From assembly GCA_036630325.1 (NCBI GenBank), contig CP142726.1:1488001-1552000 (forward strand): a stretch of 64,000 bases of DNA, in the 5' to 3' direction. Source of the DNA: Vairimorpha necatrix. Its lineage: Eukaryota. Within the stretch, counting starts at the first letter, position 1, and every line of letters begins with the position of its first letter. The translations under genes and the position numbers were made by a program. This document shows, piece by piece, positions 39,758 to 43,281 of the stretch. Below the pieces are notes generated by a model, which searched no databases, had not been told where the DNA came from, and worked only from the letters and a program-made list of their open reading frames with translations.

Positions 39758-40474
39758 ATGAATATTAATCTCTTAGTTTCTCTTCTAGAAATGTCTATTA
39801 ATACTTACCACGATGAAGATCTCCCCAGTTTAATTTACAAGTATGGATATGACAGAGACGGGATGAGATGCAAGTTATTTGATTTCCACGGGGCACTAGT
39901 CCTGGCCATCAAGGGGACTTCCTTGAATATTCTGGGGTATGAGTTAGGGGAGACATCAGAGAATGACAAGGAGATGGTAAACATAATGTTTAAGAAATGT
40001 AAAAGACACAGACAAGAAAGAGATTGTGAATATTTAAAGAAGATTAAATTTGATAAATTAGGCTACTTGTCTAAGTTACAGAATATTCTCACATATGTGA
40101 AATATTTATACCCAAATAAGAAGATCTTCTTGACTGGCCACAGCCTGGGCGGGACTCTGGCCAGTCTCCTGAGCCCGACCTTCGATCTCCAGTGTGTCAC
40201 TTTCTCCTCCCCTGGGGACTTGTACATTTCCAGAATATTACAAATAAGAAATAAGAAGATAAAAGAGAACTTGTCTCATTTTGGAATGTGTAATGACTCG
40301 ATCTTCTCTGGGAGATGTGACAGACTGTGTAAATTACTGGGGTACTCAGTAGACACAGTCAAGCACAATGGGAGGGTCTACTGTCTAAAAATAAGGCCGA
40401 ATATAAAGAGTGTAATATTTCATAATAGTAGTGTATTATTAACATATCTCAAGAAACTCTTACACCAAAACTAA
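39758..40474 (+). CDS. Class 3 lipase, Atg15-like
   Basis: VLAIKGTS, TGHSLGG, VTFSSPG, HFG..NDSIF.G.C. Confidence 0.85.
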   Translation: MNINLLVSLLEMSINTYHDEDLPSLIYKYGYDRDGMRCKLFDFHGALVLAIKGTSLNILGYELGETSENDKEMVNIMFKKCKRHRQERDCEYLKKIKFDKLGYLSKLQNILTYVKYLYPNKKIFLTGHSLGGTLASLLSPTFDLQCVTFSSPGDLYISRILQIRNKKIKENLSHFGMCNDSIFSGRCDRLCKLLGYSVDTVKHNGRVYCLKIRPNIKSVIFHNSSVLLTYLKKLLHQN

Positions 40475-40479
40475 TGACA

Positions 40480-40660
40480 TATTAGTATAATAAAAGATTA
40501 CAACAGATTAGTATAATAACAAATATTAAAAGATTAACACATATTAGTATAATTTGAATTATAATAGCAGATTAGTATAATAACAGATTAGTATATAACA
40601 GATTAAAATAGTAACAATATTATAATAACAGACTAGTATAAATTAGATTAGTATAATAAC
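40480..40660. repeat. Degenerate tandem repeat AGATTAGTATAATAAC
   Basis: Roughly 7-8 imperfect copies downstream of the lipase gene. Confidence 0.8.
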
Positions 40661-40782
40661 AAATAATTTACATTAATCTTACTTTAGTGTAATACAACAA
40701 AGTCACATGAAATTATGAATAAATCAAAATTCTTAATTTGATAAATTAAATTAATTATAAATATAATTATCTTAATACTCTT

Positions 40783-41008
40783 TGTCAAGTGACAGATCTC
40801 CAGTGGTCCTAAGATTGCCCTGGAGCTCAGAGAATACGATTCTATAAGTATTCTCTTTCTTCTCCCAACTATGTTTATGGAGGGAAAATATATAATATTT
40901 TCCCGCCTATAAATATAAAAGAAAATCATACCCAGAAGGGTATGAAGAATAATAAAAACATTAGTTTAAAACATTCTTCTCAGACTGATGGGAAACCATC
41001 AGTCCACA
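40783..41008 (+). repeat. 5' LTR
   Basis: TGTCA...CCACA, identical to 42980-43205; contains TATAAATATAAAA. Confidence 0.97.
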
Positions 41009-42957
41009 ATGGTGGTAACGGTGACGAGGATTTGAACGATCACCTAAATAGTCTTATCACTCACATGAAGAAAATATGTCTGAGCAAGAGGTGGACAGAA
41101 TTTAACGGCGAAAATCCAAAACAAGCCGAAGATTTTTTAACTCAGTTCCGCGAAATTGAGGACGTGTATACGCAAGAGAAAACGCTAGATATTGCCAAAT
41201 CTAAACTTAAAGGCAAGGCGTTAACATGGTTCAGAGCGTTCGAGGGTGATGAAATTACAGACTATGATTCATTCAAAACCCAGTTTAAAAAAAAGTATTT
41301 AAAAGAAAAACTAGCAGAAGATATAACTGATAGGTTCATACATCTATACGTGGAGGGTCCAAAAGAAGGCGACATTTTAAGTTACGCTTACGACCTCAAA
41401 AGATGTGCAAAAGGAAACCCTGAATATTTTGCCAGATCAAAGATTTCTATAGGAAAGAACTCCCCTGATAGGTTGAAGGAGTCTATTGAAGAAACGAAAG
41501 ATTGGTTGGAATTGCTGGAATTAGTTGAGAACAAACAAACTTTTATAAATAACTATTTAAACAAAAAGAAAACACTTAGTAGGAAACCAACATATGAAGC
41601 CACTAAACGAGAAAGGAAAAATAATAAACTCATTGGTCAAAAGGCAGAACAAGTATATTCTGCCAAGCTTTTAAAGTTGGGGAAAGAAAAAAATACTACT
41701 CAATTACAAGATATCCGCCCGAGGATAAATTTATATTCGGGAACAACACAAATATCCGCTCTTAATGATACCGGATCTCGAGTGAATCTTAAAAGTAAAA
41801 CAATGATTCAGAAATTGGAATTAAAACCAATAATAGATACGCTTAAGGTAGATAGAAAAGGAGACCAGGTTGAAGCAGAAGGGAAAACACAAGTTTTTAT
41901 CAAAAAGCCAAAGATCAAGAAAAAATTAAAGATCGAGGCTCATGTAAAAGAGAAATTACCGGAAAACTTCATCATTGGCATACAAGATACCAAGAAACAG
42001 AATCTACTAAAAAGTCTCGATAAAATGGAATATGACAGAACAAAGAAATCTGTTTGTACAACTATGGTGAAAAAACCAGACACGTATATAACAGAAATGG
42101 GCGGAGAGAATCTAGTTCAAGAAGAAAAGGAAAAAAGTAATAAACTTGATATAAAACCTTCTATAACATTCCATATTAAAGACCAAAGCTCAAGTGTACA
42201 TCGTAGCATAGATTTGAAAGTGCCAAAGGATCTTACAGCATTAAAGAACATTCAACATAGAAGACTAATAAGTCAAAATGAAGCGATAAGAGTCAAGCCC
42301 GTAGAGCTGGTGAAAGAAACCCATACTGGAGAAACTTGTTCGACGTGTACTATCCCGATTGCTTTAGACAAAGGATTTTTCAGGGACAAAGGAATATATG
42401 TGAACCCGCGAGAACTTTACATAATTAAAAAACAAGTTGGTTACCCAACTCCTTACATTGAAGAAAATCATGATCCACCTGAATGTATAAGATGGGGCTT
42501 GAATTTAAGGCATCGTCAGATAAGTACCTGGGAGAAATACAGAGAACAGTCGCCATATAACGGACTAATAAAAAATGTTCACAGGCGTAGTGTACCCCCT
42601 GGGCTTAGAAATATACCATTCAATTGCAATTTTATGATAAATGGATGGCGTAAAAATTACGACGAAGGTTTAGAAGTGCCTCGCTACACACATATCATTT
42701 ACACGATGATTAAACCAGGAGAAGAAACAGGAATAGTTATAAAACATGAGAAATTAGGTGTTCATAAACTACAAAACACAATACAAAGGCGAAACCCGCC
42801 GATAAACCTCAAGAAGAAAGTGATTGATAAAAGGGGAAAGTCATATATTACCCCTGTAGCCAAAATAAAGCGAGCCTATAATTCATATAACCTAAATAAG
42901 GACGCAGTCACTATTTACTGTAAGTACTTTAAGATGTGTCGTCAAATGGGAACCTAG
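40942..42957 (+). CDS. Gag-protease-degenerate RT polyprotein (671 aa)
   Basis: Gag capsid-like FNGENPKQAEDFL...LKGKALTWF; protease ALNDTGS; RT relic (VNPREL, YPTPYIEE, VPPGLRNIP) without YxDD; no RNase H or integrase. Confidence 0.85.
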   Translation: MKNNKNISLKHSSQTDGKPSVHNGGNGDEDLNDHLNSLITHMKKICLSKRWTEFNGENPKQAEDFLTQFREIEDVYTQEKTLDIAKSKLKGKALTWFRAFEGDEITDYDSFKTQFKKKYLKEKLAEDITDRFIHLYVEGPKEGDILSYAYDLKRCAKGNPEYFARSKISIGKNSPDRLKESIEETKDWLELLELVENKQTFINNYLNKKKTLSRKPTYEATKRERKNNKLIGQKAEQVYSAKLLKLGKEKNTTQLQDIRPRINLYSGTTQISALNDTGSRVNLKSKTMIQKLELKPIIDTLKVDRKGDQVEAEGKTQVFIKKPKIKKKLKIEAHVKEKLPENFIIGIQDTKKQNLLKSLDKMEYDRTKKSVCTTMVKKPDTYITEMGGENLVQEEKEKSNKLDIKPSITFHIKDQSSSVHRSIDLKVPKDLTALKNIQHRRLISQNEAIRVKPVELVKETHTGETCSTCTIPIALDKGFFRDKGIYVNPRELYIIKKQVGYPTPYIEENHDPPECIRWGLNLRHRQISTWEKYREQSPYNGLIKNVHRRSVPPGLRNIPFNCNFMINGWRKNYDEGLEVPRYTHIIYTMIKPGEETGIVIKHEKLGVHKLQNTIQRRNPPINLKKKVIDKRGKSYITPVAKIKRAYNSYNLNKDAVTIYCKYFKMCRQMGT

Positions 42958-42979
42958 GAGGCTTTAAAGAAGGGGGGAG

Positions 42980-43205: not shown

Positions 43206-43281
43206 CTCTTTTTCATTATTTTGATTACGTATTTAATTAATTCTTAAATTCCTCTTATTTCATTTTACTGCCCATCACTTC

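What the first reader, a model, noticed from the sequence alone, without database searches (positions are those of the whole stretch)
40783..41008. LTR is a chain of hairpins, with the Gag ATG inside a stem and a GAAA-tetraloop stem at the U5 end
Seen in 226 bp: TGTCA/TGACA (40783-40794), CTCCAG/CTGGAG (40798-40825), AGAGAATAC/GTATTCTCT (40829-40856), GGGAAAATAT-ATA-ATATTTTCCC (40882-40904), TCATACCC-AGAA-GGGTATGA (40926-40945, containing ATG 40942), GAAGAAT/ATTCTTC (40944-40979) and GACTGATGG-GAAA-CCATCAGTC (40983-41004). Several stems are GC-rich in an AT-rich genome. The ORF starts inside the LTR and reads through the PBS, although the downstream ATG near 41065 is an alternative start. Inference: these are structured packaging, priming or translation-control signals, and the overlapping stems at 40944-40945 could act as a switch.
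Basis: partly seen in the sequence, partly recalled or inferred. Interest (0 to 1): 0.7.

Follow-up and report, generated by a model that had tools for sequence, protein, structure and literature searches.

The report
Hairpin-rich, protein-coding retrotransposon LTR
The end repeat of a young jumping gene in a probably microsporidian parasite folds into real, conserved hairpins; the last one, next to the tRNA priming site, looks like a selected RNA signal, while the hairpin over the start codon probably forms only at the far end of the RNA, so this is a compact variant of signals known from retroviruses and yeast Ty1.

Summary
All seven inverted repeats are at the stated coordinates. The LTR folds far better than shuffles (z -8.2; 61 background windows never below -3.3). 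It is the 5' LTR of a young, non-autonomous Ty3/gypsy element primed by tRNA-Leu(UAA). The stems are unequal. The U5 stem holds the top covarying pair of 18,533 and keeps pairing through amino-acid-changing swaps. The first stem is negligible. The U3 stems are conserved but hardly covary and may be paired DNA factor sites. The LTR ATG is very likely the real start: 40 of 41 ATG-bearing LTRs keep frame across five lengths. A TATA-like box at -28 and host-type CCC/GGG motifs put the RNA start in the ATG stem's loop or 3' arm, so this stem probably forms only in the 3' RNA copy, not as a translation switch. Similar AUG hairpins occur in 3 of 12 lineages tested, on separate RT branches, and in 0 of 64 motif-bearing host genes. 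Overall covariation and G-U versus A-C tests were not above null. No RNA data were available. The scan noted coding LTRs elsewhere in this genome before, but not the hairpins.

The parts
40778..40782 (+). Target-site duplication CTCTT (second copy 43206-43210)
40783..41008 (+). 5' LTR, 226 bp, TG...CA, 100% identical to the 3' LTR
   Evidence: 48 matches in the genome with 40 of 122 candidates scored
40783..40794 (+). S1, 4-bp hairpin at the LTR start; negligible
   Evidence: -2.1 kcal/mol; no compensatory switch
40798..40825 (+). S2, U3 inverted repeat; arms conserved, loop variable
   Evidence: 1 of 12 arm columns vs 10 of 16 loop columns variable among 7 subfamily representatives; no compensatory switch in the 16-LTR set
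40829..40856 (+). S3, U3 inverted repeat; broken in the older L099/L100 subfamily
40879..40907 (+). S4, U3 stem; its 3' arm holds TTTCCCGC (40899-40906), an exact E2F-type site
   Evidence: 40881/40905 is A-G in 24, A-T in 9 and C-G in 3 of 43 LTRs; E2F consensus GCGSSAAA from PMC4862756 passages; two E2F_TDP genes in the genome
40914..40921 (+). TATA-like box, 28 nt upstream of the ATG (inferred core promoter)
   Evidence: host TATA-like starts peak in the -30 to -25 bins (17 of 34 sites)
40926..40945 (+). S5, AUG hairpin; 5' arm holds CCC, 3' arm holds GGG and the ATG; predicted to straddle the U3/R border
   Evidence: -11.9 kcal/mol; 93 WC and 3 G-U of 96 cells in 12 young LTRs; loop 4 of 4 columns variable
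40942..42957 (+). Single 671-aa ORF: Gag, protease-like DTG region, decayed RT N-terminus, integrase C-terminal remnant (in-frame deletion derivative)
   Evidence: Retrotrans_gag E 8.5e-6; 48% identity over 572 aa to autonomous L077 plus weak C-terminal hits
40944..40979 (+). S6, weak stem around AATAAA whose 3' arm is the pyrimidine-rich tract downstream of the poly(A) signal
   Evidence: -7.0 kcal/mol; re-paired with other sequences in L078 and L099; missing from the alignment fold of 11 LTRs
40951..40956 (+). AATAAA poly(A) signal, read in frame as Asn-Lys
40982..41005 (+). S7, U5-terminal hairpin ending 3-4 nt before the LTR end; best-supported RNA element
   Evidence: 40988/40999 is A-T 27, T-A 11, C-G 5 (43 of 43 paired), first of 18,533 column pairs; 40984/41003 is A-T 37, T-A 4, G-T 2; the swaps change Gag residues
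41010..41023 (+). Primer-binding site, 14 nt complementary to the 3' end of tRNA-Leu(UAA); inside the ORF
42966..42979 (+). Polypurine tract, directly after the stop codon
42980..43205 (+). 3' LTR; supplies the U3-R part of the RNA, where S2-S5 can form
   Evidence: 3'-end folds

Best explanation
This is the compressed control region of a young, non-autonomous Ty3/gypsy retrotransposon. SHOWN: LTR pair, TSD, tRNA-Leu PBS, PPT, an ORF starting in the LTR, conserved stems, covariation in S7. INFERRED: the LTR uses a host-type promoter (TATA-like at -28, CCC/GGG next to the ATG), so the RNA starts a few bases before the ATG. That places the ATG and AATAAA in a short R (about 40935-40972) and makes R-U5-PBS coding. 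The 5' end of the RNA then carries only S6 and S7. S7 is an RNA hairpin kept next to the PBS at the cost of Gag N-terminal sequence; most likely it presents the PBS or tunes tRNA-primed initiation, like retroviral U5 stems. S2-S5 exist as RNA only in the 3' copy (U3-R). There S5 hides the second AUG and competes with S6, modestly freeing the tract after AAUAAA. So the 'switch' is a 5'-copy versus 3'-copy difference, not a translation switch. The U3 stems are either 3'-end RNA structure or paired DNA sites.
For: Folding z -8.2 vs background minimum -3.3. Stem columns are conserved. S7 has the top covarying pair of 18,533 and non-synonymous compensations. A U5-terminal hairpin of unrelated sequence ends 2-6 nt before the LTR end in L083, L084, L088, L113 and L094 (-4.8 to -13.4 kcal/mol). 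ATG-to-LTR-end distances are 67, 70, 73, 76 or 79 nt in 40 of 41 ATG-bearing LTRs. An in-frame ATG lies inside the LTR in 13 of 14 LTR lineages and straddles the end in the 14th. 64 of 100 non-element ORFs have CCC or GGG within 20 nt of the ATG; E. cuniculi 5'UTRs are 1-7 nt (PMC2803860). The region 17-30 nt after AAUAAA is more open in the 3' context in 7 of 7 subfamilies of this clade. In the L131 lineage the AUG stem uses two G-U pairs and is lost in part on the - strand fold.
Against: No RNA ends or structure probing. Over all 56 stem pairs, compensatory switches (11 of 56) are not above the null of unrelated complementary column pairs (1039 of 6639). G-U vs A-C is 8:5, 11:7, 2:3 and 1:1 in three other lineages; the - strand alignment fold is as good as the + strand (-94.8 vs -90.9). 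The accessibility shift is only +0.03 to +0.23, AAUAAA itself is equally open in both contexts in the window copy (0.84), and the two contexts had different 3' flanks. The U5 hairpin is absent from L096/L141, L128, L131, L136 and the tiny LTRs, so it is not required by all these elements.
Confidence: 0.55

Rival explanations
1. One reading: the RNA starts upstream of 40926, the AUG is sequestered in S5 at the 5' end, and S5/S6 exchange toggles translation versus packaging (possibly through two start sites).
For: The AUG is paired with probability 0.97-1.0 in three lineages on separate RT branches, each with its own sequence and an anti-AUG CAU at the stem base. Only 1 of 100 host-side ORFs has a hairpin of -7 kcal/mol or better there, and it leaves out the AUG. 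S5 and S6 are partly exclusive in folds.
Against: The CAU arm begins only about 8-13 nt after the start of the TATA-like box in all three lineages, too close for a Pol II start by general knowledge. Measured microsporidian 5'UTRs are under 7 nt (PMC2803860 abstract). Sister lineages lack the hairpin (L096, L084, L128, L142). S5 has no compensatory switch.
Confidence: 0.17
2. The U3 inverted repeats (S2-S4) are DNA promoter elements, pairs of factor sites in opposite orientation, and their folding is a by-product. This can hold together with an RNA role for S7.
For: Folding is equal on both strands and as DNA. The S4 arm matches the E2F consensus exactly, and the commonest state at 40881/40905 is a mismatch (24 of 43). 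Other lineages' U3 arms are CCAAT/ATTGG pairs or TGAAAC/GTTTCA pairs (their factor assignment is recalled). The genome encodes E2F_TDP (2 hits) and STE (1 hit) proteins.
Against: None of these motifs was enriched upstream of 70 host genes (low power). The young autonomous L033 and L078 subfamilies lack the strict E2F site but have a perfect stem. Arms of 13-17 bp in L128, L131 and L136 are longer than single sites.
Confidence: 0.35
3. The perfect inverted repeats are made and repaired by template switching (quasi-palindrome correction) during reverse transcription and have no function.
For: Mostly perfect Watson-Crick stems, double-sided changes, and no significant G-U bias.
Against: Hairpins of unrelated sequence recur at the same functional positions (U5 end, AUG) across lineages. 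The element interior, also reverse-transcribed, is unstructured. G-U pairs are fixed in young subfamilies.
Confidence: 0.1

Closest known systems
Microsporidian Ty3/gypsy LTR retrotransposons (Parisot et al. 2014, PMC4202319; passages read)
   Same: Gag-type hit, LTRs, PBS, PPT; autonomous relatives with one long ORF and an RVT_1 domain.
   Different: In the passages seen the paper gives no primer or RNA-structure analysis ('primer' 0, 'secondary structure' 0 occurrences in the main text). The window copy lacks a functional RT and integrase.
Saccharomyces Ty1 5' TIPIRT domain (PMC5454406, PMC4974528; passages read)
   Same: The PBS lies inside the GAG ORF, and structured cis-signals overlap coding sequence. 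That the Ty1 AUG lies inside the LTR is recalled, not from a call.
   Different: Ty1 is copia-type, uses tRNA-iMet with a bipartite PBS, a pseudoknot and CYC5/CYC3 pairing. Here the PBS is a single 14-nt match to tRNA-Leu, and a CYC-like pairing was tested and not supported.
HIV-1 polyA hairpin and R-U5 stem-loops of retroviral LTRs (PMC2645353 abstract; PMC2664473 and PMC3601003 passages)
   Same: AAUAAA in R is present at both RNA ends, lies within a stem-loop, and its folding depends on a neighbouring hairpin; stem-loops in R-U5 are common in LTRs.
   Different: Here S6 is weak, AAUAAA is predicted mostly open, R-U5 is translated, and the neighbouring hairpin straddles U3/R and holds the start codon.
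Ty3 of S. cerevisiae (PMC11381356, passages read)
   Same: Same superfamily; cis-signals at both RNA ends.
   Different: Ty3 has a bipartite tRNA-iMet PBS outside the ORF start and a frameshift; neither applies here.

Membership tests
Ty3/gypsy LTR retrotransposon (non-autonomous derivative) | Two LTRs with TG...CA ends and a target-site duplication | tested here: met
Ty3/gypsy LTR retrotransposon (non-autonomous derivative) | PBS complementary to a host tRNA 3' end, and a PPT | tested here: met
   14 nt to tRNA-Leu(UAA); PPT
Ty3/gypsy LTR retrotransposon (non-autonomous derivative) | Gag capsid domain | tested here: met
   Retrotrans_gag above cut-off, Ty3_capsid E 4.6e-4
Ty3/gypsy LTR retrotransposon (non-autonomous derivative) | PR-RT-(RH)-IN order in the family | tested here: inconclusive
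   Relatives have RVT_1 after the protease-like region in a 1,228-1,255-aa ORF; the integrase was read from the alignment text only, with no profile scan
Autonomous Ty3/gypsy element | Intact RT and integrase in this copy | tested here: not met
   No RT or integrase Pfam hit; alignment to L077 stops at residue 568
Retroviral-type U5 stem at the PBS (works-like claim) | Conserved hairpin directly 5' of the PBS with compensatory changes | tested here: met
Retroviral-type U5 stem at the PBS (works-like claim) | Needed for tRNA annealing or initiation of reverse transcription | not testable with these tools
   needs in vitro priming assays
HIV-type polyA hairpin | AAUAAA occluded in the 5' copy and freed in the 3' copy | tested here: inconclusive
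   AAUAAA 0.84 unpaired in both contexts; downstream tract +0.03 to +0.23 more open in the 3' context
Ty1 CYC5/CYC3 cyclization | Co-evolving pairing between U3 and the region after the PBS | tested here: not met
   Matched subfamily duplexes were not better than mismatched ones in a 7 x 7 table
Rfam RNA family | Match at gathering score | tested here: not met
   5 weak hits, all far below gathering score

The most novel reading that the evidence does not exclude
Microsporidian retrotransposons, forced by ultra-short 5'UTRs to put the start codon inside R, have evolved at least three times an anti-AUG hairpin across the U3/R border. It forms only when the RNA includes U3 sequence, so RNA start site or RNA end decides whether the AUG is readable: a minimal device that marks the 3' copy or an untranslated, packageable RNA form, and couples this to poly(A) choice through competition with the next stem.
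Probability: 0.25. Interest if true: 0.65.

Novelty: new variant of a known kind. Interest (0 to 1): 0.4.

Why it matters
Structured R-U5 signals and a coding PBS are known from retroviruses and Ty1, so the basic finding is expected. What is added is a very small system where promoter, start codon, poly(A) signal, priming hairpin and PBS share about 110 bases and many young subfamilies supply natural variants. It shows RNA structure overriding Gag sequence (non-synonymous compensations) and a recurring AUG hairpin absent from host genes. It gives a clear test of how an LTR tells its 5' copy from its 3' copy when the 5'UTR is only a few bases. I found no paper on microsporidian LTR RNA structure in searches (open-access library only; the original Nosema Nbr element paper is recalled and was not seen).

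Tried and rejected
Rfam: no family. RNA evidence: no RNA holder listed; the one run, of unrecorded kind, gave fragmented contigs of several subfamilies and nothing on RNA ends or an empty site. Relatives outside this genome: none from a protein search limited to 1,176-3,355-aa proteins (weak evidence) and none in metagenome contigs, so all covariation data come from one genome. Global covariation count: not above null. Default alignment folding of all 43 LTRs gave only fragments (-11.6); with relaxed parameters on 11 mostly young LTRs it recovered S1-S5 and S7 but not S6. G-U vs A-C strand tests: inconclusive (4:1:5). U3-to-post-PBS cyclization and U3-to-PPT pairing: no matched-subfamily advantage. 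Extended tRNA pairing: a 7-nt match of the S7 3' arm to the anticodon stem is lost in L033, not claimed. Host promoter enrichment of E2F, PRE and CCAAT motifs: none in 70 genes; genome-wide TTTCCCGC count 256 vs 188 control includes LTR copies. Pattern scan 68 enforces the stem it finds, so its 48 hits show only loop variation. Earlier-findings searches by words and by sequence returned nothing. Six of 31 loci gave no LTR pair and were dropped; elements under 98.5% LTR identity or without TSD were dropped from the 50-element set.

Full report
Observation. The 226 bases are the 5' LTR of a 2,423-bp element with an identical 3' LTR and a CTCTT target-site duplication. The LTR folds at -79.3 kcal/mol, z -8.2, but almost as well on the other strand (z -7.0) and as DNA (z -8.6), so energy alone does not say which molecule matters. 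Sixty-one background windows never fell below z -3.3 and the element interior is unstructured. S1 is trivial (-2.1) and S6 weak (-7.0); S2, S3, S4, S5 and S7 are -10 to -19 kcal/mol.

The element. The single ORF (40942-42957, 671 aa) hits Retrotrans_gag. It aligns over 572 aa at 48% to a 4.0-kb autonomous relative, then jumps to weak matches near that protein's C-terminus: an in-frame deletion derivative without working RT or integrase. The PBS at 41010-41023 pairs 14 nt with tRNA-Leu(UAA), of which two genes were found (33 distinct tRNAs examined, not the full set). The host is inferred to be a microsporidian from the compact AT-rich 15-Mb genome and the CCC motif before start codons; I ran no taxonomic test.

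Which ATG. Among 43 distinct LTR sequences from 65 copies, 41 keep the ATG, and in 40 of these the distance to the LTR end is 67, 70, 73, 76 or 79 nt, so insertions keep the frame. ATG 40942 has CCC at -11 and GGG at -4; ATG 41065 has neither in the 16 nt upstream. Of 100 non-element ORFs, 64 have CCC or GGG in the last 20 nt and none has both. An in-frame ATG inside the LTR is the rule here: 13 of 14 LTR lineages, with the 14th straddling the end (50 young elements). Earlier notes of this scan reported this coding-LTR layout for other elements of the genome; my counts agree.

Which stems are selected. Stem columns vary less than other columns (32 of 110 vs 72 of 116; 16 LTRs), arms less than loops in every stem. 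Conservation without covariation cannot tell RNA stems from DNA sites. Over all 56 stem pairs, compensatory switches are not above the null (11 of 56 vs 1039 of 6639). S7 is the exception. Pair 40988/40999 is A-T, T-A or C-G in 43 of 43 LTRs and ranks first among 18,533 column pairs; 40984/41003 also flips. The tetraloop is GAAA or GCAA in the young subfamilies and 6 nt in L097/L099. These swaps change Gag residues (QTDGKPSV, RSVGKPTD, RTAGQPVV), so pairing outranks protein sequence. Unrelated hairpins end 2-6 nt before the LTR end in L083, L084, L088, L113 and L094, but not in L096/L141, L128, L131, L136 or the tiny LTRs. S6 is re-paired with different cores in L078 and L099 but is missing from the alignment fold.

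The ATG stem. S5 is fully paired in 12 young LTRs, with 3 G-U cells and a freely changing loop. A hairpin whose 5' arm starts with CAU and whose 3' arm ends in the AUG also occurs in the L131 group and in L141, with other sequences. The three sit on the three main branches of an RT tree, and sister lineages lack it, so it arose repeatedly or was lost repeatedly; 12 of the 14 lineages were tested. Host genes do not have it (0 of 64 motif-bearing ORFs at -7 kcal/mol or better). However, in all three lineages a TATA-like box starts 27-28 nt before the ATG, as in host genes, and 5'UTRs mapped in E. cuniculi are 1-7 nt (PMC2803860, passages and section 6). The RNA should therefore start in the loop or 3' arm, and S5 can form only in the 3' copy. 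Folds show that S6 forms when the RNA starts 6 nt before the ATG and is displaced when S5 can form (window copy, L033, L078). The effect on the poly(A) region is in the same direction in 7 of 7 subfamilies but small, AAUAAA stays mostly open in the window copy, and the two contexts had different flanks. This resembles the HIV-1 polyA hairpin logic (PMC2645353, abstract) but is not shown.

The U3 stems. Low folding z in LTRs is general in this genome (about -2 to -13 for young LTRs of 160 nt or more, -1 to -2.5 for the 110-nt family). The strand test is inconclusive: 8 G-U vs 5 A-C, similar in three more lineages, and the - strand alignment folds as well as the + strand. The S4 3' arm is an exact E2F-type site (consensus from PMC4862756 passages), the genome encodes two E2F_TDP proteins and one STE protein, and other lineages' arms are CCAAT or TGAAAC pairs (assignments recalled). 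Against this, the motifs are not enriched before 70 host genes, and two young autonomous subfamilies lack the strict site. The DNA-site reading stays open for S2-S4.

Comparison. Stem-loops in R-U5 are a common LTR feature (PMC2664473, PMC3601003; passages). Ty1 has its PBS and structured cis-signals inside GAG (PMC4974528, PMC5454406; passages). Ty3 differs by a bipartite PBS (PMC11381356; passages). A Ty1-like cyclization pairing was tested and not supported. Searches showed no paper on microsporidian LTR RNA structure; subscription papers are not covered, and no supplements were read.

Verdict. The U5 hairpin is a well-supported RNA signal, probably for priming. The ATG hairpin is real and recurrent but probably belongs to the 3' RNA end. 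The U3 stems are undecided between RNA and DNA. It is a new variant of a known kind; interest 0.4.

Noticed in passing
window 40942-42957: The RT stub has drifted far from the autonomous relative, yet the frame stays open over about 670 codons in 5 copies of this subfamily and 5 copies of a second subfamily only 63% identical. The L088 lineage also has 2.3-2.5-kb derivatives with open 687-745-aa frames. This suggests selection to keep the whole RNA translated.
   Followed up: partly
L128-L135 (110-nt LTRs): A 13-17-bp U3 hairpin; AATAAA lies upstream of CCC-ATG in some subfamilies, so it would be absent from the RNA 5' end.
   Followed up: partly
L131 lineage U3; L088, L096, L141, L127 U3: U3 inverted repeats are built of CCAAT/ATTGG pairs (L131) or TGAAAC/GTTTCA pairs (others), resembling NF-Y and Ste12 sites (recalled); Ty elements of yeast are also pheromone-linked.
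   Followed up: partly
L005/L046 (G000:C5:24365-24431): One copy has a tandem duplication of LTR positions 160-226 plus PBS, with the frame still open.
   Followed up: no
L031 (G000:C10:656000-665500): A 4.0-kb relative is nested in opposite orientation inside a 2.4-kb-type element.
   Followed up: no
tRNA usage across lineages: This clade uses tRNA-Leu(UAA); most other lineages examined have a PBS matching tRNA-Ser (11 nt), and the tiny-LTR group has a third PBS type that was not assigned.
   Followed up: partly
window 40480-40680: Degenerate tandem repeats between the lipase-like gene (39758-40474) and the insertion site; length differs in the one other sample laid.
   Followed up: no
G000 RT hits such as C6:562793-563554: A frequent RT family spans about 762 nt instead of about 480, implying a large insertion in the domain or another retroelement class; no LTR pair was found at one such locus (L138).
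   Followed up: no
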